From Naegleria gruberi (taxonomy: Eukaryota), in assembly GCA_000004985.1 (NCBI GenBank), contig GG738897.1: DNA of 64,000 bases; one strand, given 5' to 3'. The notes beneath the pieces were generated by a model. That model had not been told where the DNA came from. It searched no databases and saw only the letters and a list, made by a program, of their open reading frames with translations. A program made the translations under genes and the position numbers. Of the stretch, positions 44,028-60,986 are shown piece by piece. How positions within the stretch are numbered: the stretch's first letter is position 1; every line of letters begins with the position of its first letter.

Positions 44028-46472
44028 ATGCAAGCTCAAGATTGCACCAGTTCATCTCCTTGCGTCGAAAAATTGATCATCGACCTCGGAAAGAAGATTC
44101 AGCAAGGAGAAAACGTTGAGGAAAATTCAAAATTATTGAAGGAATTAGAAATACAAGAAGGATTGCCTCTTTCCCAGAATGTGTCAAATATGTTATATAA
44201 TTTGGATATTATTAAATTTTCGGATGAAGAATCTTTGATAAAATCCGTATTGTATGAAGATGTAAAAATTATGAATGAAAAGAAATTATATGAATGGTTG
44301 GAAAGTAAAATGGAAACTGATAGGGAGTGCATGTTGAGCTATCTTATAAAACCAAAGAGAATTCTTGAAGGAGAAGAGAAGGATCAATTCGAAAGGGTTA
44401 GACTTGGCTCTATTTGTTTGAGAAAGATTATTGAAATGTTGGATCCAATTCTGTTTAATTGGTTTTCATATGAAACTTATCAAGATTTGAGACAATTTTA
44501 TGGAGAATTTACTTGTGACAATTTTCTTCCAAAATCACAAGGTCCAATTTCAACATTCAACTTAATAATGGATTTGTATTGGAGAAAGGAATACTTTACT
44601 TGTTTTTCAATTGGTATTACCTTTTTGGAGAGAACATTGGGCGATTTATTATTACTTGTCTCGAAAAAATCAAAAGATAACCCAAATGATTTGGTTTCAA
44701 TTATCGAAAATTTCAGAGAGTTAAAAATTAATGAGCTGTTGATGGTTGAAGAAATTGAAGAGGCTCTTGGAAAGGAATTTGTATTTATTTTCAGATGTTT
44801 CTCAGGCCCACTACAAGGATTGAATTTAAGAAACGTTTTATGGCATGGATTTTTGGATTCTGAAAATTTCCCTAGATGCTTTGCATCTTTCCTGATCCTT
44901 CTCATCATTAGCATTTCAAAAAGAGAGGAAACCAAGCAAGTATTAGAGAATGCTTCCTCCAAGCAAGTTAGAAGATCTTTCAATACAATGCTGGATATTC
45001 CCGTCAATTCTGGTAATCCATTGAGAAGAGACTTTTCTGATTACATCAAGAATGGAGAACATGCATTGGAAGAGAGTTTTGATTTAATTGATGAGAGCTA
45101 CCTTATACCATACAGAAGTAAGAGAGATTGGAAAAAGTCTATCGAATACTATAGAAATGGGCATATTTTCTTGAGCTTTGTCACTCTCTTCCCACATTTA
45201 GAGCACGCCTTGAGAAGAATGTTTGCCTACTCGAATAATAATTTTGAAAGGCTCTTCTCAGCAGAGACTGACCAAGTTTACACAACATTTGATGAAATTA
45301 TGCACCCTAGCATTGATTATACAGAGGTTTCATCAAATTTGACAGATGGTGGTGATAAGACCTCCACTTGGACATTTGAAAACAGAAACCGTATATTTGA
45401 AGAAATAGGAGATAGCCTCATGTTATCCCTCTTTGATATTCTCTTCTTTAAGGATGGCCCAAGAATAAGAGACAAGTTGAGTCATGGTGTTGTTGATCCA
45501 CATCAAATTTTGGAAATTGAAAATCTGTCTGAGCAGGTAATCGCCATCGTGATGTGCATTATTTTCAATTGTTCCACACTCAATAGAGAAAATCAATCAA
45601 CTAACGAGCTAACCAATAAGATTTTAGAATTAAGAAATAATTTTACCTTTCAAACCTACCATCCCCAAATGAACTTTTTCAAAGAGTTTGACACCACTCT
45701 TGAAAAGTTCAAATCATTTGTTGAAAATACAGTTTCAAAAGCTTATTATTTTAGATATAAGGATGAATTTACAAAGAAATTATTTGAAAAGTATCCAAAT
45801 ACAGAAAGAGGAGAAAAGAGATTTATCGTCAAGCAATCATCAGATTTAGTCAACTTGATTGAAGTCTATAATAAGAGAATGCAAGATATTGGCCACGATT
45901 CAGTTGTATATAGAGATTTGTATCAACACAATATCAAACTTAACATCTTACTTGAAGAACCATCCGAAACAGAAACTATACAAAGTTTGGATTTGGAAAT
46001 GATACAAAATTCATTTGCTACCCTTAAGAAAACCAAAATGAAACCAAGACTTCCATTAACATTTTGTGGAAAAGTTGGAAATATTCAATCGATAGAATTT
46101 ACAAAAATATACAGACTCACAGATATTGTAAAGGCCAGTGGACAATTTGTTGATGAAGTCACTGCACTCTTAGCAGAATTGGAAGAACCAATTTTGAGTA
46201 GAAAGGCCTACTCTAGACATAGAAAGCGTTTCGTCTACACTTGCTACAATATGATTGACTTTTACAATCAATGCATTCTCCAACTTATGGCAGTTGAATT
46301 TTTATCCCTTAGCCCTGTCAACAAAATTGAATTGGACGAAAGAGGAATTATTTTGAGATTGGCTCGAGCAAGTCCACCAAGTGTGAAATCTTCAACATTA
46401 GACAAGATTGAAAAGCTAAATCTCGAATGGAAAACATTTATCCAAAATATCCAACTTGAAAAAAGCCCTTAA
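44028..46472 (+). CDS. Hypothetical 814-aa protein with an internal duplication. Possibly DUF4209/ERMARD-like. Single exon.
   Basis: ATG at 44028. Two related segments ('NLRNVLWHGFLD...FLILLIISI' and 'IRDKLSHGVVDP...VIAIVMCII'), each followed by a hydrophobic stretch. Confidence 0.5.
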   Translation: MQAQDCTSSSPCVEKLIIDLGKKIQQGENVEENSKLLKELEIQEGLPLSQNVSNMLYNLDIIKFSDEESLIKSVLYEDVKIMNEKKLYEWLESKMETDRECMLSYLIKPKRILEGEEKDQFERVRLGSICLRKIIEMLDPILFNWFSYETYQDLRQFYGEFTCDNFLPKSQGPISTFNLIMDLYWRKEYFTCFSIGITFLERTLGDLLLLVSKKSKDNPNDLVSIIENFRELKINELLMVEEIEEALGKEFVFIFRCFSGPLQGLNLRNVLWHGFLDSENFPRCFASFLILLIISISKREETKQVLENASSKQVRRSFNTMLDIPVNSGNPLRRDFSDYIKNGEHALEESFDLIDESYLIPYRSKRDWKKSIEYYRNGHIFLSFVTLFPHLEHALRRMFAYSNNNFERLFSAETDQVYTTFDEIMHPSIDYTEVSSNLTDGGDKTSTWTFENRNRIFEEIGDSLMLSLFDILFFKDGPRIRDKLSHGVVDPHQILEIENLSEQVIAIVMCIIFNCSTLNRENQSTNELTNKILELRNNFTFQTYHPQMNFFKEFDTTLEKFKSFVENTVSKAYYFRYKDEFTKKLFEKYPNTERGEKRFIVKQSSDLVNLIEVYNKRMQDIGHDSVVYRDLYQHNIKLNILLEEPSETETIQSLDLEMIQNSFATLKKTKMKPRLPLTFCGKVGNIQSIEFTKIYRLTDIVKASGQFVDEVTALLAELEEPILSRKAYSRHRKRFVYTCYNMIDFYNQCILQLMAVEFLSLSPVNKIELDERGIILRLARASPPSVKSSTLDKIEKLNLEWKTFIQNIQLEKSP

Positions 46473-52788: not shown

Positions 52789-54447
52789 TTATTGATGTTC
52801 TTCTTCGTTATGAGCAACAACATTAAGACCTCTTCTCAAATCAAAGTTGAGCAAATCAGAAACATTATCAACAGCTGAAGTTGGATCATGCTTGTGTGAC
52901 ATAAAGTGACCTTGTAATTCAGCACAAGTAAAACGTCTAATTTCCTTATGTTCTGCGAAAATCTTAGCACAGAATAAATCAGCACAATCGTATTCACGAG
53001 GATAAAAGTTGAGGAACATTTCTCTAGTTTGAATTTCATCAGCAAAGTCAATCAAATATTTTACATCAATTCTGCCAGGCCTAATTAAGGCATCTGGTAA
53101 TCTGTCAATATGATTGGTGGTCATGAACAAAATTCTTCCTTCTTGAGCTACAACGCCATCAATACAATTCAAAAGTCCACCCAGTGTTACGTTTGATCCA
53201 GTTCCATGAGTGGAAAGCTCAGAAACTGAATTATCATCACTTGCTTCAGGTTGGGATGGATGTGGTGGTCTAGTTTGTTTTCGTTCCATCTTAATTGGAG
53301 CAGAAAAACAAGCATCAATATCTTCCAACAGTATTATAGAGTTGAATGGTGTATTCAATAAGAGACTGTTCAAATTATCATCATTGAGATTCTTATTACT
53401 AATATTAATGCAACAAATATTCTTATCCAAGGCACCTGCCAATGCAGTTACTGTACTTGTTTTACCTGTACCAGGTGGTCCCTATTTTGATAATTCAATT
53501 CAAAATTATAAATATTATTAAATATTATCATGATGTTAATAATACTAATACAATATAAAAAATATACTTACATAGAGAAGATAACCTCTTCTGAATGGAA
53601 TACCATGATCGTTATACCACTTTTCAAGTCCAATAAAATTCTTAGCATCCATCAACAACTTTTCGAAAATATTCGATTGTAATTTAACAGTACTAGGTGG
53701 ACGTTTCAATTTTGAAATTCTTGGCTCCCAAAAATCACAATACGAATCTGGAAGATAAATCAATGTTTTACCATGTTTAGATTCCAAATATTTCTGTTGA
53801 CAATCGATAATAAATTCCTTCAAAAAGTTTGGACTTGTTGCCAAACAACTAATTTCAATTTGTTCACTTGGAGAATTTGGTGATGATCCCAAAGATGCAC
53901 CTGATGATAAATTTCTTTCATATGAAATCTTGATAGTTTTTCCTTTAAATTTCAAATAATGAATACCAGGTGATGGAATAAATTTGATTGGAACTGAATG
54001 TTTATCCTTTTCAGAAGGATTATGTTTAAAACTAGAGAAATCAAAATGAGTTTTGGATGCTAAAATAGCCAAATGATTCGAATCTTGACTATAACTATCC
54101 TCAGCCAACCAATACATGAACCAATGATATGCTTCATCATTATTATTAATTTGCAACTTGCTCACAAAATTCTTTTGAAACAAGTAATTAATGGAACTGT
54201 ACCAAAATGTACCAAGTCCCAAACTTCCCAAAAACAAATACAAATGTCCAATATTAATATTCTTTGCAAGGCTGAGAAATTTCTCCCAGAGTGATGAAAG
54301 TGTTCCCGATGATCCAACTCCAACAGCAGCAGCAACAACACTTGCTCCGATTAATCCTGTCGTTGTTGATGGAGTGTTTGTTGTTTGCACGTTGTTTCCG
54401 AGAGTTGGTGATTGAACGAGCGTGGTGCTTGTTAGATTTGTATTCAT
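52789..54447 (-). CDS. Mitochondrial chaperone BCS1 (AAA+ ATPase). Two exons: 54447-53572 and 53481-52789.
   Basis: ATG at 54447; the track ORF starts further upstream at 54528 with a probable non-ATG codon. N-terminal TM segment plus BCS1_N region. '...WYNDHGIPFRRGYLLY|GPPGTGKTSTVTALAGAL' is restored by removing a 90-nt GTAAGT...tAG intron (53571-53482). The Walker A motif is split across the junction. Walker B 'ILLLEDIDA'. Sensor and arginine finger 'TTNHIDRLDPALIRPGRID'. Confidence 0.8.
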
Positions 54448-54541
54448 TTTTTTTAAACTTTTAAAGTTTTCGTAAAATTGATTGAATTTGAAAGAAGCCA
54501 AAAAGGCAACAGTGTTAAAAAATATCAATTATTAAGAGAGT

Positions 54542-55297
54542 TTATTGGATAATCCACTTGGGTTTTCCAATGGAATCGTTAAGGCCATAGATGGGAATGA
54601 TCTGTTGAAAATCTGTCTTGTCATCTCTAACCAATTGCATAATTTCAGGTGTGTTTGGAATTACATAATGAGACCAATAGTCAATTGTCTTTTTCTGTTT
54701 GGTATTCTTATCTTTGAGGTTATTTCCAAGAATAGACCATCCATTACTGGCCTCAATTTCCATACTTCTTGGCACAATCACATTATTATCCATTAATTGA
54801 AATAACTCATCTCTTAATTGCTCTCCATATGGTTGACTAGTTCCAGAATAATCACAACCAGAGAAACAAACATGTAATTTGATAGATCTACATTGTGGAG
54901 CTTCATTTAGATAGGGAGCTAACAATTTGGCTAAGGAATTGGCATTAACAAAGGCCTTCTGTATGGTTGGTCTTACTGGACCAGACGAAAGTAAACCGAA
55001 AGTTCCATCATGAGCATAAATGTGAAGAGAACTGTGTTGATCTTTCAATTCTTTAGTATTTACAAGTAATGGTTGAAATTGCTTTCGGAATTGTTCCTTC
55101 ATGAAATCTACAACCTCATCATCGACTGTTGTTTTATTCTTGTGGTATCGTCCTCTGATTTCTAATGTGCAAACTTTCTTATAGTTTCCATTCTTATATT
55201 TTGTGGTTTTTACACGATGGCTCGATAGGATCAGCTCGTTATTGAGTGCTTTAGAATTGGTGCAAGTGCCATTGTTGGTGAGGATGAGTAGTTGCAT
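54542..55297 (-). CDS. Hypothetical protein, 251 aa.
   Basis: ATG at 55297. Uninterrupted ORF. No domain recognised. Confidence 0.4.
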   Translation of the reverse strand: MQLLILTNNGTCTNSKALNNELILSSHRVKTTKYKNGNYKKVCTLEIRGRYHKNKTTVDDEVVDFMKEQFRKQFQPLLVNTKELKDQHSSLHIYAHDGTFGLLSSGPVRPTIQKAFVNANSLAKLLAPYLNEAPQCRSIKLHVCFSGCDYSGTSQPYGEQLRDELFQLMDNNVIVPRSMEIEASNGWSILGNNLKDKNTKQKKTIDYWSHYVIPNTPEIMQLVRDDKTDFQQIIPIYGLNDSIGKPKWIIQ

Positions 55298-55386
55298 TTC
55301 TTTTTAAATTTTGTTTCTAATATTTTCAATTTTGAAATTGAAATTGTTTTTCATATTGAAATTGATATTTATTTCATGTTAGAAAA

Positions 55387-58298
55387 TTACAATTCCAGAG
55401 ATTTACCTGTTGATTTCTCCCATTGTTTGTATTGTTTAGTTTTTTGTAATCTGGAGAAAGTATCCGAAATATTCATGAATAATTCTGGCCAAAGTAAGTC
55501 AGTAAGAACTTTGACAGTCACAATAGTTGACACTTCACTCAAAATTGTGTCAATATTCTTGGACATGGCATCAAAACCTCCTTCTTCTTCACTCGATTGA
55601 ATGTAAGTGCTATAACTTGGGAAGATTAACTTGTAGAACTTTTTCTTACAATCAGATGATAAGTTAATTTCATATTCTGAATAATTTCTAATAAAATCTC
55701 GTTCAATTTCTCTCAAATCCTCGACGGTAACGAGTGCATTGTAATTGGTATAGTTGGAAGAGATTGTTCTAACCTTTTCCCAAATGAGAATGTTTTCTGA
55801 GGCAAATTCCTTCTCTGCAAAATTTTTGAGTAAACCATAGAAATATCCATCTGAGATCATTAGGTATTCCAATTCGTTTTCTTGATTTTTACGAAAGGCA
55901 ACTTTCTTTTTGGTAACTTGGGCTGCCTTGGAGTTGAAATCCTCTCCCACAGTTGTTCCATTGAGTTTGGCTCCAGAAATGAAATATCCTGTAGATTCTG
56001 GATTAATTACTGACATGTTACAGTTTCTCAAATTGGTATTGATGAATTTAGTGCCTGTAATTAAACACCTTGAAAATATACATTCAGCCATCGAGGAGTT
56101 ACTGAAATTGGCATTGGATAAAGCAGTATTTGTAAAATCGCTTTGATTCAGAATCGTATTGGAAAAGTTTGATGATGATAAATCCATATTTGAAAAGTTG
56201 AATTGTTTCATTGAGCAACCAGATAAGTCAACTCCAAAGAGAGTTTTGGCACTTCTGAGGAATTCTTCATTGACCTTGGCTCTGTTCATTTTGGCATTCG
56301 AAAGTACACAACCAGTTGACTCCGATGCAATATTGGTCAAGTCGCAACCTTTCAAGTTGGTATTTGTGAAATTAGTATTATCAAATAGTGCTCCTGAAAG
56401 ATTGGCTCCTCCCAAGGAACCACCTGTGAGATTGGCAGAGGTAAAGTTGGTATATCTCAAATCACACAAGGTTAAATTGGCATGTGCAAGATTTGCCTTC
56501 TCAAAGGTACAACCTCTAAGATTGCAACCACTAAAGTTAACCTCTGATAAATTCATTCCACTAAAATCAGAGTCTGTTATTTGGATCTTTCTGATATCCA
56601 AATCTTTGAGTGAGACAAGTTTCAAATCAATGTTTGAAAGTTTCACCTCCAAGTTTTCTCTTCTATGATATTCTATGATATTCTTCAGTTCGTAGTGTTT
56701 GATTCTGCTCTTCTTCTTTTCAATCTCAATACCAAACTTGGTGATACTTTCAGTGAGCAAATCGTTGGATTCTAATTGAGATTTGAGTTTTTCCATGTTG
56801 AAACTTGTGGCTACATCAATCAATAATCTTGCAATGTTTGGATTGACTGATATTTTGCCAAATCTAAGCCAATGGAGAATGAGTAAGAATAATTCAACAT
56901 CACAATCAATAAAGTGTTCCTCATCAAAATCTGTAACTTCTTTGAACATTGAAGCCAATGAGGATGTTGGTTCATATTCTGTATTCAACAATGTTGAAAG
57001 AGCTACATTGATAATCTCACCACCAACATCTAATTTTACACATTGTGAGAATTCTTCTCTTGATGACATGAGAACAATATTTGATATTTTGCCCTCCAAT
57101 TCTCTTGATTGAGATGATAAATATTCCAACTTGGATTCCAACTGTTTGATTGACTGATCAAAAACAACTGCCTTTGTTTGACACGTTGATTCTGATTCAT
57201 TGATTTTCTTCTTGAAATATACATCCACTTCCTCAAGATATGAACTGCATTTGCTTTCCATGTGGTTTTTAAAGAATCCTCTCAGTACATAATTTTCACA
57301 TTTCGAACAACGAACCAACAATCCCTCAATCTGTCTCTTTGTAATATCTGAAATATCTGAAAGATTTTCTCCCAAAATTTCATCCCTCTCACAAATATTA
57401 CACTTCTCCATACATTTTAAACATTCAGAACAGAACATATTTCCACAATTGTTATGAGTTTTGGCTTCCAAATCCAAAACTTGTTTACACGATTGACATT
57501 TCAAATCATTAGAAATGTTGCTCAATTGTGAAACAAACACAAAAGGAGATCCACTGTCTTCACTTGAAGATGACAAAGTAAGAGAATCTCTCATTGAAAT
57601 TCTTTCCTTTACGAAATCTTTCTGCATGAGTGAGTCAACCAGAACAGGAGGTGGTGAATCCCCTCCTATTGTATTTCTAAACATTCTTCTTTGAACCACT
57701 AATATTTAACATCATTAGTTTCGAATAATATAGAACCATGAAAAACACAAAAACAATCATTAGAATTGATATCATCATTTCTTGATTATAATCACTTACC
57801 TTCCTCAAAATCTTCCTTGTCATCTTCCAAACTAATAGGTGAAGATGTATTCGAATGTGTATTTGAACTACTCTTGCCATTCACTTCCATAATACTTTTT
57901 CTAAAATTCTCCTGTTGACTATTCATCACAGCAACTCGTGGAGAAATTGATTTTTCACTATTCGATGAAGTTGATGACAATGACGAAGGCGAAGGAGGAG
58001 TAAATGTTGTCATTCGATGTTTCGCATTATTATTATTCGAAACATTATTTCCAACACTTCCAGTCGTTGCCAATGATGATGCACCCGAGGATGATGAAGA
58101 TGAAGATGATGAATCTAATGTTTGTGTTGTTGTTGCACTAATTGTAGAAGAATTTGAAGAATTTAGATTATTGTTGAATACGACAGCTGTTCTTCCTCTT
58201 CTAACTCTCACAATAGGACGAGTGGGTGAATCTGATGCAGTTGATGGGGAGTTTGTATGGTTGATGGTGCTAGGGGAAGGTGGTGTATTCTTGTCCAT
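55387..58298 (-). CDS. Multidomain signalling protein: Ser/Asn-rich N-terminus, Cys-rich RING/B-box-like zinc-finger region, KCTD/T1-type BTB domain, pentapeptide repeats and a C-terminal RGS domain. Two exons: 58298-57800 and 57698-55387.
   Basis: First ATG at 58298; the track ORF starts at GTG 58310. Intron GTAAGT (57799) ... tAG (57699), 101 nt, phase 1. Zinc-finger region 'CQSCKQVLDLEAKTHNNCGNMFCSECLKCMEKCNIC'. BTB 'VKLDVGGEIINVALSTLLNTEYEPTSSLASMF...FIDCDVELFLLILHWLRFGKI'. Pentapeptide repeats 'ANLSGALFDNTNFTNTNLKGCDLTN...'. RGS signature 'FAEKEFASENILIWEKV'. Confidence 0.65.
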
Positions 58299-58949
58299 TT
58301 TCGAATACACTTTACAGAGTTTCGTTTTGTTTCGTTTGTTTTCTTTTTTTGATGGTGAAGAAACTTTCTGGATTTTTGTGGCTTTGTAAAGTGAATGGTT
58401 TGGAACTGATTTGGTTTGTGGATTCGCCCGCTGGAAGTTATTTTGAGTTTAAACTGGAAATTGGTCAACTTGATATTTTAAATATTAAATAGATCTTTAA
58501 TTTAAATACTTTACAGAACATACATGTCGTAAAGCGTTTGTAATAAGTGAAAGGAGTAACAAGGACAATTTCTGGGCTCCTTTTTATTCGAAATAGTCAT
58601 GTTTCGAATACTGTTTGAACTTTCATTACATTGGATAACCCTCAAAAACCTATTCAAATTAAGAATTTTCTTCTTTATTACAAACTAATCAAATAAGAAT
58701 CTAAGGTAATCCACACTTTTTGAAGAAACACTTTCAATATCGCATCTTGATAACACACTTTATCTTTTTCAAAAAACTCAAATTCGTCAATGATGGATAA
58801 ATTAACCCATTTCATCTTGCATCATATCGCAATGTTGGACAATTTTTATGATTCGAATGAGATGACGCTCAAAAACGACAAAAAAAACATCTCTCTCAAT
58901 ATTTAGAGTTCCTAGGATCCTGTATAATAACATCTTGTTCTTCTTGGCA

Positions 58950-60986
58950 ATGAGGTTTTCGTATTTTGTTTCGAATTACTGTTTCTTTTACTTTCTAATA
59001 ATTTTATTGTTTGTGGGTTATTCGAAAGGATACGCCATTTTTCATGATGGAGTGGCTGGTTACTCGAATAGCCAAACAACTGTTCGGAATCTAGACGAAT
59101 CTGTTTCTAATAGTTTTGCTTTGGATCAACTAGAGTATCCTTCCGATAATGATATTGCCTACTTTCCAGCACTCTCTCAGCCCTATTCAGTTCTCTATTT
59201 TCCATTAGATAATACCAACAATGATTTATGTCAACTCAACAAGTCGTCATCTTCTCTTATTCGAAACTTGAATAATGTATGTATGGAATATTTTTGTACA
59301 TGCACTCTGGATAGTAGAGTTTGTAATAATCTGACAAGATCATTACTTTGGGATGACACATTCAGGGATTCGTATTTTTCAATGGTCAACTATTGCATGC
59401 ATTGTAATGGAGAGAATTCTAAAGATTTTAGGACAGAAATTTCCAAATCTAATGGACAGTGCAGTGGGAAATTTCCAAGTTATTCTCAAATTCAACAATC
59501 TTTAATTGGACATTGTAATATGGAGCTATCAGATAGTGAAATTTATTCGATAGTTGCTAATAATCAGTCAAGTGTAAATAATTTGAATATTGGAATTCTG
59601 GATTGGAGGTATTACAAACCAAATCAATATTACTCAAAGAAATATGTAAATAATATGACGATTTCTGATAAGGACAATACCCTTCACTTATTCGAAACTC
59701 TATTCCAAAATCGAAATGAAAATCCAATCCTGTGTTGGTGCAAAAACGAATTATATGGAGGATTTGCCTACAAGTGTGCTGATGCCTACTATAACTTTTT
59801 AGTAAGATTCAAATATATAGGAACTCCTTGGTGGTTCATGTTCTTTTTCACATGCTACTTGATTACAATGACAATTTACAATACAATTCCACTCGTACAT
59901 GCAAAGAATGCTTCTATTAAGAAGAAGATTGAACAGAGGAAATCCAGAGAGGCCAACACTATAAGAATGTATCTAACTATTTATCTGGAAGAATTATTTC
60001 TCACCGATTTGAGACCTTCCATTTTACTATTAATTTATATGGAAAGTTCATTTTTCTTTATTGAAAATATGATTTGTTTCTTGTGGAATTATTCATTCAT
60101 GCATGGTAGCTTGAAGAATATTCAATTGTGGGGCTGCTTTAGAGCTTTGGCAATCTACGCTCTTGGATATGGATTCTCTACATTGATGGTTCAATGGAGT
60201 CATATTGTTGATCTAATCAAATCAAATCAGAGTAAGAAGAAATTGTCCAAGTATAATCTCATTCTGCTCATTTCCATTTATATTTTCAATGCATTTCTGA
60301 TAATAATTGCCATAGTCTTGTGTTCAATTCTCAAGACGAGCGTTTACTTATTTGCTTTAGCTGCTGTTGCCATGATATTGGTTCCAACAATTTTGATAGT
60401 TTCCTTCACAACATATGGAATTGTAATTTATAGACGATTGAAAAGTTACAAGAATGTGAATATTTCACAAATGAGATTTTTCAAGTTTATTCTCGTATTT
60501 AACACTGCCTTATTCTTTGGATTTGTATTGGCCATTATTTTCGTGCCAACCTTTATTTCTACATGGGATATTTTTGGAATGTTTGTTGGTGTATTCAAGA
60601 ATTTCGCCATTGATTCGGCAGGATTATTGGCGACCTACATAATTACCTATATTCTGATCAATGAGAATGAATTCACCAAATGTTATGGAATTAAGGCGTC
60701 TCGTATTCTCATTTGTTCAAACCTTCCTGAATCCAATCCTTCAGTAGTTTCGTCTGCCTTACCTTCTCCTTCTTCTGCCAGAGATAGAGCTCTCTCATCA
60801 ACCTCAACAGCCAATAATCCATCACTGGTAAAACCAGTTTCAACAAATCAATTGGACAATGATGATGAACTGAAGAGAAGCAATACTGTGAGTTCCCTAC
60901 AGACAACAACCACTGCAACCTCCTCATCACCAATGGTCACAACACCAACTGTCTACATTTTGGACGATTCAAAGAATAATATTTGA
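58950..60986 (+). CDS. Seven-transmembrane receptor-like protein with a Cys-rich extracellular N-terminal domain and a Ser-rich C-tail. Single exon.
   Basis: ATG at 58950; the track ORF starts at TTG 58935. Signal peptide. About 280-aa Cys-containing ectodomain. Seven hydrophobic helices ('WWFMFFFTCYLITMTIY', 'ILLLIYMESSFFFIENMICFLW', 'FRALAIYALGYGFSTLMV', 'LILLISIYIFNAFLIIIAIVL', 'LFALAAVAMILVPTILIVSF', 'FILVFNTALFFGFVLAIIFV', 'AIDSAGLLATYIITYILI'). Confidence 0.55.
   Translation: MRFSYFVSNYCFFYFLIILLFVGYSKGYAIFHDGVAGYSNSQTTVRNLDESVSNSFALDQLEYPSDNDIAYFPALSQPYSVLYFPLDNTNNDLCQLNKSSSSLIRNLNNVCMEYFCTCTLDSRVCNNLTRSLLWDDTFRDSYFSMVNYCMHCNGENSKDFRTEISKSNGQCSGKFPSYSQIQQSLIGHCNMELSDSEIYSIVANNQSSVNNLNIGILDWRYYKPNQYYSKKYVNNMTISDKDNTLHLFETLFQNRNENPILCWCKNELYGGFAYKCADAYYNFLVRFKYIGTPWWFMFFFTCYLITMTIYNTIPLVHAKNASIKKKIEQRKSREANTIRMYLTIYLEELFLTDLRPSILLLIYMESSFFFIENMICFLWNYSFMHGSLKNIQLWGCFRALAIYALGYGFSTLMVQWSHIVDLIKSNQSKKKLSKYNLILLISIYIFNAFLIIIAIVLCSILKTSVYLFALAAVAMILVPTILIVSFTTYGIVIYRRLKSYKNVNISQMRFFKFILVFNTALFFGFVLAIIFVPTFISTWDIFGMFVGVFKNFAIDSAGLLATYIITYILINENEFTKCYGIKASRILICSNLPESNPSVVSSALPSPSSARDRALSSTSTANNPSLVKPVSTNQLDNDDELKRSNTVSSLQTTTTATSSSPMVTTPTVYILDDSKNNI

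What the first reader, a model, noticed from the sequence alone, without database searches (positions are those of the whole stretch)
55387..60986. Head-to-head pair: RING-like/KCTD-BTB/pentapeptide-repeat/RGS fusion protein and a 7TM receptor
The minus-strand gene combines a KCTD-type T1 BTB domain with pentapeptide repeats, a KCTD9-like core. It adds an N-terminal Cys-rich zinc finger and a C-terminal RGS domain (FxxEFSxENxxxW signature). This combination suggests a GTPase-accelerating protein coupled to a cullin-3 adaptor-like scaffold. Its start lies about 650 bp from the divergently transcribed 7TM receptor-like gene. The two may share a bidirectional promoter and act in one G-protein pathway.
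Basis: partly seen in the sequence, partly recalled or inferred. Interest (0 to 1): 0.7.

Follow-up and report, generated by a model that had tools for sequence, protein, structure and literature searches.

The report
Naegleria BTB–pentapeptide–RGS protein beside 7TM gene
The amoeba Naegleria gruberi has a real but uncharacterised gene joining a G-protein "off-switch" (RGS) domain to a KCTD9-like scaffold. It lies head-to-head with an orphan seven-helix membrane protein gene, but nothing beyond that adjacency links the two, and related species do not share the arrangement.

Summary
The window is Naegleria gruberi DNA. The minus-strand gene (exons 58298-57800 and 57698-55387, 936 aa) encodes these parts in order:
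- a low-complexity N-terminus;
- a degenerate TRAF-like RING (His to Asn at the fourth zinc ligand);
- a TRAF-type zinc finger and a coiled coil;
- a KCTD/T1 BTB domain whose best solved match is KCTD9;
- two pentapeptide-repeat blocks;
- a genuine RGS domain.

The RGS family profile matches only RGS structures (E 4.8e-12). The AlphaFold model has pLDDT 86, and its 50 best fold matches listed are all RGS domains. The Gα-contact residues are conserved.

N. fowleri has an ortholog with zinc finger, BTB, pentapeptide and RGS but no RING. All other relatives of this RGS domain are mostly Naegleria-type 7TM-RGS receptors.

Two residues needed for Cullin-3 binding in KCTD7 are replaced, so the cullin-adaptor idea is doubtful.

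The plus-strand gene (58950-60986) has a signal peptide, a 12-Cys ectodomain and seven helices. It matches no known receptor or transporter family.

The head-to-head arrangement (651 bp) is real. It is absent around the N. fowleri RGS ortholog and the N. lovaniensis 7TM homolog.

Verdict: a lineage-specific RGS architecture, moderately interesting. The pairing is probably coincidental.

The parts
57800..58298 (-). Exon 1 of the RGS-fusion gene (ATG at 58298). It encodes aa 1-166 plus the first base of codon 167, a Ser/Thr/Asn-rich low-complexity N-terminus.
   Evidence: Searches show in-frame splicing. The NCBI model P0008 uses the same exon. The N. fowleri ortholog has a comparable low-complexity N-terminus with a shared R-x-R-R motif.
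57699..57799 (-). Intron 1 (101 nt, GTAAGT...TAG)
   Evidence: Read directly from the sequence. Removing it restores the reading frame.
55387..57698 (-). Exon 2 of the RGS-fusion gene, including the stop codon at 55387-55389 (aa 167-936)
   Evidence: It is identical to the ENA protein P0001 and 47% identical over 663 aa to the N. fowleri ortholog.
57391..57498 (-). Degenerate RING-like finger (aa 234-269): C-x2-C-x13-C-x-N-x2-C-x2-C-x6-C-x2-C, with Asn where a RING has His
   Evidence: phmmer alignments to the TRAF5, RNF125 and TRAF6 RINGs, E 0.004-0.01. No Pfam RING hit. Absent from the N. fowleri ortholog.
57247..57312 (-). TRAF-type zinc finger (aa 296-317): C-x2-C-x11-H-x4-C
   Evidence: Aligns to the first zinc finger of TRAF5 and TRAF6. 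The Cys/His ligands are invariant in the N. fowleri ortholog. No Pfam zf-TRAF hit.
57073..57165 (-). Probable coiled coil (aa 345-375)
   Evidence: Weak Prefoldin and Sec10_N coiled-coil matches, E about 0.009. The heptad-like sequence is conserved in the ortholog.
56767..57042 (-). KCTD/T1-type BTB domain (aa 386-477)
   Evidence: Pfam BTB_2 at 27.1 bits, above the 21.4 cut-off. Best solved match is the KCTD9 BTB, 5bxh, E 6.2e-6. The equivalents of the KCTD7 Cul3-contact residues M76 and Y131 are Ser and Ser.
55945..56640 (-). Two pentapeptide-repeat blocks (aa 520-622 and 656-730). Each is followed by a similar cap motif (ESTG...AK.N).
   Evidence: Pfam Pentapeptide E 5.4e-37, Pentapeptide_4 E 5.3e-26. 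Repeat register printed.
55414..55878 (-). RGS domain (aa 774-928), with a low-confidence variable insert between helices
   Evidence: Pfam RGS 24.8 bits, above the 23.9 cut-off, when scanned alone. The family profile hits only RGS structures in the PDB, best E 4.8e-12. AF2 pLDDT 86.4. The 50 best Foldseek matches listed are all RGS domains. E, E, N, D and R contact residues are invariant across 37 relatives.
58299..58949 (.). 651-bp divergent intergenic region between the two start codons. It contains three TATTCGAAA sites.
   Evidence: No Rfam match.
58950..60986 (+). Orphan 7TM membrane protein gene (678 aa). Signal peptide 58950-59030, Cys-rich ectodomain 59031-59819, seven-helix region 59820-60665, Ser/Thr-rich cytoplasmic tail 60666-60983, stop codon 60984-60986.
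   Evidence: Homologs were found only in Naegleria (P0005-P0007). No Pfam or PDB sequence match. The AF2 model is poor, pLDDT 40.
54542..55297 (-). Downstream 251-aa ORF. The NCBI model XP_002672540.1 splices it onto the RGS protein through a predicted intron at about 55250-55404. It is more likely a separate gene.
   Evidence: The N. fowleri ortholog ends just after the RGS domain and has no homolog of this ORF nearby. The predicted acceptor is AAG rather than the usual YAG. The next tandem gene, BCS1, is also only about 95 nt away.

Best explanation
The minus-strand gene encodes a soluble, probably oligomeric regulator of G-protein signalling that is specific to the Naegleria lineage.

- **RGS domain.** It is of the same sequence type as the RGS domains that Naegleria normally attaches to 7TM receptors. 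It binds activated G-alpha subunits and accelerates their GTP hydrolysis. This is inferred from conserved contact residues and from measured GAP activity of Naegleria fowleri 7TM-RGS domains.
- **Upstream module.** It consists of a TRAF-type zinc finger, a coiled coil, a KCTD9-like T1 BTB domain and a pentapeptide beta-helix. It most likely acts as a multimerising and targeting scaffold that presents several RGS domains. It probably does not act as a canonical Cullin-3 substrate adaptor.
- **RING-like finger.** It is degenerate and dispensable in the lineage.
- **Neighbouring gene.** It encodes a Naegleria-specific orphan seven-helix surface protein of unknown family. Its head-to-head position is most likely an accident of a gene-dense genome, not a functional pairing.
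For: **RGS identity is shown.**
- establish the domain by profile and by fold.
- Residues invariant across 37 relatives (E37, E41, N85, D152, R156 of the 176-aa segment) fall in the EFxxEN, E-I-N and D-T-F-x-R motifs. By my recollection of RGS4 numbering these are E83, E87/N88, N128, D163 and R167, the G-alpha switch contacts.

**Relatives and orthology.**
- An exhaustive HMMER scan of 1.84 billion proteins found 74 relatives. Most are 7TM-RGS proteins: 43 of 49 long ones have at least 5 predicted TM segments.
- Only the N. fowleri cluster (P0010, P0083) shares the BTB and pentapeptide part.
- Orthology is supported by 47% identity over 663 aa and by a shared DUF4209/EMARD_N neighbour.
- N. 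fowleri 7TM-RGS domains are measured, selective GAPs for Naegleria G-alpha subunits (PMC9283941).

**BTB and RING.**
- The BTB is KCTD-type and closest to KCTD9.
- The Cul3 primary-interface residues are not conserved.
- The RING has His to Asn and is absent from the ortholog.

**The pair is not conserved and not linked.**
- Neighbours differ in N. fowleri and N. lovaniensis.
- The neighbour's 7TM region is unrelated to the 7TM-RGS transmembrane domain (hhalign probability 0.13%).
- The surrounding genes are importin-beta, reticulon, BCS1 and START, with only a cNMP-binding gene plausibly in signalling. This is not a G-protein signalling cluster.
Against: - No biochemical or expression data exist for either gene.
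- The RGS has Ala where RGS4 has Ser85. It could be a G-alpha-binding effector-type module rather than a GAP.
- The Cul3 argument rests on two aligned columns at about 30% identity and on human Cul3 contacts. Naegleria Cul3 could have co-evolved.
- The oligomeric state was not tested.
- A dense cluster of the 9-mer TATTCGAAA spans the 5' ends of both genes and their spacer: 8 of the window's 10 copies fall within 2 kb, against 0.8 expected for the whole window. It could be a shared regulatory feature, which would favour co-regulation.
- Orthology of the 7TM homologs (37-43% identity) is likely but not proven.
- The upstream flank of the fourth homolog (L002) is only 471 nt long.
Confidence: 0.6

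Rival explanations
1. Cullin-3 adaptor model. The BTB domain recruits Cul3, and the RGS domain or pentapeptide helix presents activated G-alpha as a ubiquitination substrate. Signalling would then be ended by both GAP action and degradation. The RING-like finger could add a second E3 activity.
For: - The BTB domain is KCTD-type and closest to KCTD9, which sits in the same subfamily as KCTD2, KCTD5 and KCTD17 (PMC9976452).
- KCTD5/Cul3 ubiquitinates G-beta-gamma (PMC10348674), so a KCTD to G-protein link has precedent.
- The N-terminus resembles TRAF-type E3 ligases.
Against: - The equivalents of KCTD7 M76 and Y131 are Ser/Ser in N. gruberi and Leu/Gln in N. fowleri. Mutation of either residue markedly impairs Cul3 binding in KCTD7. 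Non-binding KCTDs carry K, R, T or L at the M76 position.
- The RING lacks its His ligand and is deleted in the ortholog.
Confidence: 0.15
2. Functional receptor-regulator pair. The orphan 7TM protein and the RGS fusion are co-regulated from a bidirectional promoter and act together, effectively as a 7TM-RGS receptor split into two polypeptides.
For: - The genes are head-to-head with a 651-bp spacer.
- The RGS domain is of the type otherwise fused to 7TM proteins.
- A TATTCGAAA motif cluster spans both 5' ends and is conserved in a second N. gruberi strain.
- The 7TM protein has receptor-like topology and a Cys-rich ectodomain.
- A low-confidence model gives mostly GPCR hits, best E 0.019.
Against: - The arrangement is absent in N. 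fowleri and N. lovaniensis.
- The 7TM region shows no homology to the 7TM-RGS transmembrane domain or to any Pfam or PDB family.
- The fold hits come from a model with pLDDT 40 and are not reliable.
- Naegleria has over 100 RGS genes, so chance adjacency is plausible.
- The second strain is 98% identical, so motif conservation there carries no weight.
Confidence: 0.1
3. The true protein is the 1165-aa NCBI/JGI model. An intron at about 55250-55404 removes the stop codon and adds the 251-aa downstream ORF as a further C-terminal domain of unknown function.
For: - It is the deposited model XP_002672540.1.
- The junction has a GT donor and an AG acceptor in frame.
- Only 90 nt separate the stop codon from the next ATG.
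Against: - Both N. fowleri annotations of the ortholog end 10-20 residues after the RGS domain.
- No homolog of the 251-aa ORF lies in the N. fowleri locus.
- The acceptor is AAG, not YAG.
- The ORF has its own ATG in an A-rich context, 9 nt after an in-frame stop.
- An equally short spacer of about 95 nt separates that ORF from the BCS1 gene.
Confidence: 0.2
4. The RGS domain is not a GAP. It acts as a G-alpha-GTP docking module, as in RGS-RhoGEF effectors, which would make the BTB-pentapeptide scaffold a downstream effector rather than a terminator.
For: - Naegleria and Entamoeba RGS-RhoGEFs use a canonical RGS domain as an effector interface (PMC9283941).
- EhRGS-RhoGEF is among the profile hits, E 1.2e-9.
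- The Ser85-equivalent residue is Ala in both orthologs.
Against: - The Asn128-equivalent and the other contact residues are invariant.
- The nearest relatives are 7TM-RGS domains, several of which have measured GAP activity.
Confidence: 0.15

Closest known systems
Naegleria/heterolobosean 7TM-RGS proteins (e.g. Nf 7TM RGS1-4, Bosch et al. 2022, PMC9283941; plant AtRGS1 is the classic analogue)
   Same: The RGS domain belongs to the same sequence clade (E 1e-10 to 1e-22, 31-46% identity). It shares the EKEFSxEN, YE[VIL]N and DTFxRLQxT..[YF]..W motifs and a variable insert. Members of this clade are measured GAPs for Naegleria G-alpha subunits.
   Different: The window protein has no transmembrane segment. 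In place of the 7TM region it carries a zinc finger, coiled coil, BTB domain and pentapeptide repeats. The adjacent 7TM gene is not related to the 7TM part of these proteins.
KCTD9 (human) / FIP2 (Arabidopsis) BTB-pentapeptide proteins
   Same: It has a T1-type BTB domain directly followed by pentapeptide repeats. KCTD9 is the best solved BTB match (E 6.2e-6, against 4e-4 or weaker for other KCTDs).
   Different: No KHA N-terminal domain was detected; a TRAF-like RING, zinc finger and coiled coil stand in its place. An RGS domain is appended. The Cul3-contact positions differ: Met/Phe in KCTD9, Ser/Ser here. Human KCTD9 did not bind G-beta-gamma in the one survey read (PMC9976452). That FIP2 has this architecture is from memory, not tested here.
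KCTD5/2/17 and KCTD8/12/16, G-beta-gamma-directed KCTD proteins
   Same: They are KCTD-type BTB proteins that regulate heterotrimeric G-protein signalling (PMC10348674, PMC9976452).
   Different: Those proteins bind G-beta-gamma through a C-terminal domain that is absent here. The window protein would address G-alpha through an RGS domain. Its BTB similarity to KCTD5 is weak (E 0.017).
TRAF-family RING/zinc-finger/coiled-coil proteins (TRAF5, TRAF6) and RNF125
   Same: The order is the same: RING, linker, C-x2-C-x11-H-x4-C finger, coiled coil. Alignments have E 0.004-0.01.
   Different: The RING His ligand is Asn. There is no MATH/TRAF-C domain. The RING is absent in the N. fowleri ortholog. 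No Pfam RING or zf-TRAF hit.
N. fowleri FDP41_010924 (XP_044567658.1, UniProt A0A6A5CC67, 'RGS domain-containing protein')
   Same: It is the ortholog: 47% identity over 663 aa, with the same zinc finger, coiled coil, BTB_2, Pentapeptide and RGS order.
   Different: It lacks the RING-like finger. Its genomic neighbours differ (a D123 gene upstream), and no 7TM gene is adjacent.

Membership tests
RGS domain (Pfam PF00615) | Significant match to the RGS sequence profile | tested here: met
   It scores 20.5 bits (below the 23.9 cut-off) in the whole ORF and 24.8 bits (E 3.1e-5) as an isolated C-terminus. The ortholog scores 32.1 bits. A 37-sequence family profile hits 35 PDB sequences, all RGS, best E 4.8e-12.
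RGS domain (Pfam PF00615) | All-helical RGS-box fold | tested here: met
   AF2 pLDDT 86.4, pTM 0.78, nine helices. The 50 best Foldseek PDB matches listed are all RGS domains, with probability 0.85-1.00 (0.96 or higher for the top 47) and target-normalised TM-score up to 0.74, although the best E is only 6e-3.
RGS domain (Pfam PF00615) | Conserved G-alpha switch-contact residues (RGS4 E83, S85, E87, N88, N128, D163, R167; numbering recalled from memory) | tested here: met
   EKEFASEN, EINLS and SDTFSRL. The E, E, N, D and R positions are invariant in 37 relatives. The only difference is Ser85 to Ala, shared with the ortholog.
RGS domain (Pfam PF00615) | GTPase-accelerating activity on G-alpha | not testable with these tools
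   Only related N. fowleri 7TM-RGS domains have been assayed (PMC9283941).
KCTD / T1-type BTB | Match to BTB_2 (PF02214) and to solved KCTD BTB domains | tested here: met
   BTB_2 at 27.1 bits, above the 21.4 cut-off. KCTD9 E 6.2e-6, KCTD15 E 4e-4, KCTD1 E 8e-4, KCTD7 E 2e-3.
KCTD / T1-type BTB | Homo-oligomerisation (tetramer or pentamer) | not testable with these tools
   No multimer prediction was available.
Cullin-3 substrate adaptor (KCTD type) | Hydrophobic Cul3 primary-interface residues (KCTD7 M76: M or F in binders; Y131: aromatic in all KCTDs) | tested here: not met
   MAFFT columns give Ser and Ser in N. gruberi, Leu and Gln in N. fowleri, Met and Phe in KCTD9, Met and Tyr in KCTD7. 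The criteria are taken from PMC10348674.
KCTD9/FIP2 subfamily | BTB domain followed by C-terminal pentapeptide repeats | tested here: met
   Pfam domain order is BTB_2 then Pentapeptide. Best BTB match is KCTD9.
KCTD9/FIP2 subfamily | N-terminal KHA domain and no further catalytic or regulatory domains | tested here: not met
   No KHA hit in Pfam scans at E up to 10. The N-terminus is a TRAF-like RING, zinc finger and coiled coil, and the C-terminus carries an RGS domain.
Pentapeptide-repeat proteins | Tandem A(D/N)LXX repeats matching PF00805 and PF13599 | tested here: met
   E 5.4e-37 and 5.3e-26. About 36 pentads in two blocks.
RING finger (C3HC4) | Eight zinc ligands C-x2-C...C-x-H-x2-C-x2-C...C-x2-C and a profile match | tested here: not met
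   Ligand 4 is Asn (CGNMFC, where TRAF5 and TRAF6 have CGHRFC). No Pfam RING family at E up to 10. The element is absent from the ortholog. PDB alignments are borderline, E 0.004-0.01.
TRAF-type zinc finger | C-x2-C-x11-12-H-x3-5-C finger following a RING and preceding a coiled coil | tested here: inconclusive
   The pattern is present and its ligands are invariant in the ortholog. It aligns with the TRAF5 and TRAF6 fingers. There is no Pfam zf-TRAF hit.
G-protein-coupled receptor (for the neighbouring 7TM gene) | Seven TM helices, N-terminus outside | tested here: met
   Signal peptide, 12-Cys ectodomain and seven hydrophobic helices. K+R counts are 19 inside and 2 outside. AF2 secondary structure shows the helices.
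G-protein-coupled receptor (for the neighbouring 7TM gene) | Sequence or fold homology to a recognised GPCR family | tested here: inconclusive
   No Pfam hit for any of the 4 family members. A profile search of the PDB found nothing. Foldseek with a pLDDT-40 model gives mostly GPCRs, but the best E is 0.019 and the model is unreliable.
7TM-RGS receptor family (for the neighbouring 7TM gene) | Transmembrane domain homologous to that of 7TM-RGS proteins | tested here: not met
   hhalign of the 4-sequence 7TM family against 10 7TM-RGS proteins gives probability 0.13%. The neighbour also lacks an RGS domain.
Conserved divergent gene pair | The same two genes adjacent in related genomes | tested here: not met
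   In N. fowleri locus L004 the ortholog has D123 upstream and an unrelated convergent gene downstream. In N. lovaniensis locus L001 the 7TM homolog sits between adh_short and ornithine decarboxylase genes. No cross-hits to the window apart from the queried genes and a DUF4209/EMARD_N gene.

The most novel reading that the evidence does not exclude
The fusion would be a 'Rosetta stone'. It would show that KCTD9/FIP2-type BTB-pentapeptide scaffolds, whose cellular role is poorly understood, belong to heterotrimeric G-alpha regulation. In Naegleria the scaffold would form a pentamer displaying five RGS domains. It would work in trans with the adjacent orphan 7TM surface protein as a split 7TM-RGS receptor. 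The two genes would be co-regulated through the TATTCGAAA motif cluster that spans their shared 5' region.
Probability: 0.06. Interest if true: 0.7.

Novelty: new variant of a known kind. Interest (0 to 1): 0.35.

Why it matters
RGS proteins with lineage-specific accessory domains are well known, and Naegleria has an unusually large RGS family: 28 7TM-RGS plus 79 other RGS proteins in N. fowleri.

What is new is the combination. A KCTD9-like T1 BTB and pentapeptide scaffold, preceded by a TRAF-like zinc finger and coiled coil, is joined to an RGS domain of the 7TM-RGS type. This combination is conserved between N. gruberi and the pathogen N. fowleri. It was found nowhere else among 1.84 billion representative proteins searched with the RGS domain.

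It gives a concrete, testable physical link between the KCTD family, already tied to G-beta-gamma control in animals, and G-alpha deactivation. It also adds a soluble member to the Naegleria RGS set that has been proposed as a source of drug targets.

The work corrects two public gene models: a truncated 7TM model and a probably over-fused RGS model.

The proposed receptor-regulator pairing, which made the finding look most interesting, is not supported.

Tried and rejected
1. **Word-indexed homolog searches for the fusion protein**. Orthologs appeared only in the exhaustive HMMER scan with the RGS segment.
2. **A query with the pentapeptide region deleted**, sent to the exhaustive scan.
3. 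**AF2 of the 7TM protein with its 4-sequence alignment.** It gave pLDDT 40. The Foldseek result from this model is listed but not relied on.
4. **The idea that the neighbour is a 7TM-RGS receptor that lost its RGS domain.** Rejected by hhalign, probability 0.13%.
5. **Synteny through the Logan homolog L002.** Uninformative, because only 471 nt lie upstream. The N. fowleri 7TM homolog P0007 had no contig on record.
6. **Comparison with a second N. gruberi strain (L003, 98% identical)** to decide intron against intergenic for 55250-55404. Indels show the stretch is non-coding, but that does not separate the two readings.
7. **The 251-aa downstream ORF.** No Pfam or PDB match.
8. **Literature searches by locus tags and accessions.** No papers found. 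No paper describing a BTB-pentapeptide-RGS architecture was found.
9. **Rfam scan of 53-62 kb.** Nothing found.
10. **Longer repeats around the TATTCGAAA sites.** None; the motif is only about 10-11 nt long.

Full report
**Source and gene structures**

The window is AT-rich eukaryotic DNA, about 34% GC. The plus-strand ORF is 100% identical to a Naegleria gruberi predicted protein, XP_002672476.1. The minus-strand ORF belongs to the cluster of N. gruberi XP_002672540.1, NAEGRDRAFT_59210.

The minus-strand gene has two exons. Exon 1 runs 58298-57800. A 101-nt GT...AG intron follows. Exon 2 runs 57698-55387. They join in frame to give 936 aa.

The deposited 1165-aa model goes further. It removes the stop codon with a second predicted intron (about 55404-55250) and appends the next ORF, 251 aa at 54542-55297. 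I consider that fusion doubtful for four reasons:
- Both N. fowleri annotations of the ortholog end just after the RGS domain.
- The N. fowleri locus has no homolog of the 251-aa ORF.
- The predicted acceptor is AAG rather than the usual YAG.
- An equally short spacer of about 95 nt separates that ORF from the next tandem gene, BCS1.

The annotated 7TM model (443 aa) is truncated. The ORF from ATG 58950 adds a signal peptide and a Cys-rich domain that align with the homologs.

Pfam finds Pentapeptide (E 5e-37) and BTB_2 (27.1 bits against a 21.4 cut-off). RGS scores just under its cut-off in the whole ORF (20.5 against 23.9) but above it when the C-terminus is scanned alone (24.8 bits, E 3e-5).

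An exhaustive HMMER scan of 1.84 billion representative proteins with the last 196 residues found 74 relatives. Three results then settle the RGS assignment:
- A 37-sequence alignment of the domain, used as a profile, hits 35 PDB sequences. Every one is an RGS domain, best E 4.8e-12.
- AlphaFold2 with that alignment gives pLDDT 86.4 and pTM 0.78.
- Its 50 best Foldseek PDB matches listed are all RGS domains, with probability 0.85-1.00 (0.96 or higher for the top 47) and target-normalised TM-score up to 0.74. The E-values are modest, 6e-3 at best.

The residues invariant across the family lie in the EFxxEN, E-I-N and D-T-F-x-R motifs. By my recollection of RGS4 numbering these are the G-alpha switch contacts E83, E87/N88, N128, D163 and R167. 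The only departure is Ala for Ser85, shared with the ortholog.

**The rest of the protein**

- *BTB domain.* It is KCTD/T1-type and closest to KCTD9 (5bxh, E 6.2e-6). KCTD15, KCTD1, KCTD7 and KCTD5 follow at 4e-4 to 2e-2.
- *Pentapeptide region.* It forms two blocks, each ending in a similar cap motif.
- *Cys-rich element.* It aligns with the RING plus first zinc finger of TRAF5, RNF125 and TRAF6 (E 0.004-0.01). The alignment shows CGNMFC where RINGs have CGHxFC, so the fourth zinc ligand is Asn. No Pfam RING or zf-TRAF model hits it.
- *Zinc finger and coiled coil.* A C-x2-C-x11-H-x4-C finger and a probable coiled coil follow.

**Conservation**

The best relative, P0010 with P0083 (N. fowleri CAG4719299.1 and XP_044567658.1, 'RGS domain-containing protein'), is 47% identical over 663 aa. 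It has the same zinc finger, coiled coil, BTB_2, Pentapeptide and RGS order, with RGS at 32.1 bits. A DUF4209/EMARD_N gene lies near both copies, which supports positional orthology with rearrangement. The N. fowleri protein lacks the RING-like segment entirely.

Among the other relatives of the RGS domain, none shares the N-terminal, BTB or pentapeptide part. Most are 700-850-aa proteins with a C-terminal RGS domain, and 43 of the 49 long ones have at least 5 predicted TM segments. These are the heterolobosean 7TM-RGS family. The architecture is therefore a Naegleria-lineage invention that re-uses a 7TM-RGS-type RGS domain on a soluble scaffold.

**Mechanism**

N. fowleri encodes 13 G-alpha subunits, 28 7TM-RGS proteins and 79 other RGS proteins. 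Several 7TM-RGS domains are measured, selective GAPs acting through the canonical switch interface (PMC9283941). By homology and conserved contacts, the window protein's RGS domain most likely does the same. This step is inferred, not shown.

For the BTB domain I tested the Cullin-3 idea against published determinants. In the KCTD7-Cul3 structure, M76 and Y131 form the primary hydrophobic interface, and mutating either markedly impairs binding. Binders have M or F at the first position and non-binders have K, R, T or L. The second position is aromatic in all KCTDs (PMC10348674). In a MAFFT alignment these columns read:

| Protein | M76 column | Y131 column |
|---|---|---|
| N. gruberi | Ser | Ser |
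| N. fowleri | Leu | Gln |
| KCTD9 | Met | Phe |
| KCTD7 | Met | Tyr |

. This points away from canonical Cul3 recruitment and toward an oligomerising scaffold role. Two caveats apply: the identity is low, and Naegleria Cul3 may have co-evolved. The degenerate RING that the ortholog lacks argues against a conserved E3 activity.

**The neighbour and the pairing**

The 678-aa product has a signal peptide, a 265-aa ectodomain with 12 Cys invariant in four homologs, seven hydrophobic helices and a Ser/Thr-rich tail. The charge bias is strongly positive-inside, with K+R 19 against 2.

Homologs were found only in Naegleria, one per source. No Pfam family matches any member. A family profile finds nothing in the PDB. 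The family is unrelated to the transmembrane domain of 7TM-RGS proteins (hhalign probability 0.13%).

The AF2 model is poor, pLDDT 40. Its Foldseek hits are mostly GPCRs but are not significant, best E 0.019. I give them little weight. The protein is receptor-like in topology and unclassified in family.

The head-to-head arrangement is not conserved:
- The N. lovaniensis homolog lies between adh_short and ornithine decarboxylase genes, all on one strand.
- The N. fowleri RGS ortholog has a D123 gene 100 nt upstream in tandem and an unrelated convergent gene downstream.
- The window's other genes are importin-beta, reticulon, BCS1 and START, with only a cNMP-binding gene plausibly in signalling. 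They do not form a G-protein signalling cluster.

With over 100 RGS genes per genome, one lying next to a multi-pass membrane protein needs no special explanation.

**An unexplained feature**

The 9-mer TATTCGAAA occurs 10 times in the window, against 0.79 expected and a shuffle maximum of 4. Eight copies lie within 57719-59697. That stretch covers intron 1 and exon 1 of the RGS gene, the spacer (one copy abuts the ATG) and the first 750 nt of the 7TM coding sequence, where the copies sit in three different frames. TTCGAA shows the same clustering.

The motif is only about 10-11 nt long and is not part of a longer repeat. It is retained in a second, 98%-identical strain. No such cluster was seen in the N. 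lovaniensis or Logan loci, and N. fowleri has only two related sites near the ortholog's start. It could be a regulatory site cluster shared by the pair, and it is the only hint in favour of co-regulation. I could not test it.

**Comparison with what is known, and verdict**

Lineage-specific RGS architectures made by domain shuffling are well documented, including an independent RGS radiation in heteroloboseans (PMC3971589). KCTD proteins are established regulators of G-beta-gamma (PMC10348674, PMC9976452). KCTD9 itself did not bind G-beta-gamma in the survey read.

I found no paper describing a BTB-pentapeptide-RGS protein or these loci. Both orthologs exist in databases only as uncharacterised predictions.

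The finding is a real, conserved new variant of a known kind, a multidomain RGS protein. It has moderate interest as a physical link between a KCTD9-like scaffold and G-alpha regulation. The more exciting claims are not supported by the evidence obtainable here: a Cullin-3 adaptor role, and a functional pair with the neighbouring 7TM gene.

Noticed in passing
window 57719-59697 (also 2145 and 2385): There is a dense cluster of the 9-mer TATTCGAAA, often followed by C. Eight of the window's 10 copies fall within 2 kb spanning the 5' parts of both genes and their spacer, against 0.79 copies expected in the whole window. Copies inside coding sequence sit in three different reading frames. All five copies in the overlapping part are retained in a second N. 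gruberi strain. The N. lovaniensis and Logan loci show no such cluster.
   Followed up: partly
window 54542-55404: The public model XP_002672540.1 (1165 aa) splices out the stop codon of the RGS gene and fuses it to a 251-aa downstream ORF. The N. fowleri ortholog, the weak AAG acceptor and the locally short intergenic spacers suggest two separate genes. The 251-aa ORF has no Pfam or PDB match, and no homolog was found in the N. fowleri locus.
   Followed up: partly
window 58950-59654: The public model of the 7TM gene (XP_002672476.1, 443 aa) starts at an internal Met. It omits the signal peptide and most of the Cys-rich ectodomain, both of which align with the N. lovaniensis, N. fowleri and Logan homologs.
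   Followed up: yes
window 55414-55878: The RGS domain scores below the Pfam gathering threshold in the full-length protein (20.5 against 23.9 bits) but above it when scanned alone (24.8 bits). Catalogues built with gathering thresholds on whole proteins could miss this N. gruberi RGS gene.
   Followed up: yes
window 44028-46472 and L004 816-3275: A DUF4209/EMARD_N gene is 56% identical between N. gruberi and N. fowleri. It lies about 9 kb from the RGS-fusion gene in N. gruberi and about 2 kb from it in N. fowleri, in opposite relative orientation. This is loose microsynteny with an inversion and different intervening genes.
   Followed up: partly
window 54529-54541 and 55298-55386; alignment A2: Tandem genes on the minus strand (RGS gene, 251-aa ORF, BCS1) are separated by only about 90-95 nt from stop codon to next ATG. 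These spacers carry the only indels (13, 2 and 19 nt) between two N. gruberi strains that are otherwise 98% identical.
   Followed up: partly
window 52789-54528: The BCS1 homolog is split over two ORFs: BCS1_N at 53545-54528, and AAA plus AAA_lid_BCS1 at 52789-53442. This implies an intron or a frame change of about 100 nt between them.
   Followed up: no
proteins P0011-P0081 (relatives of the RGS domain): The heterolobosean 7TM-RGS proteins share strongly conserved motifs outside the RGS domain: FLFFDDPFYVRIDL before the sixth helix, R..YLRNLY after the third, and CGGN in the seventh. These might define the family better than the weak Pfam RGS scores, several of which fall below the cut-off.
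   Followed up: no
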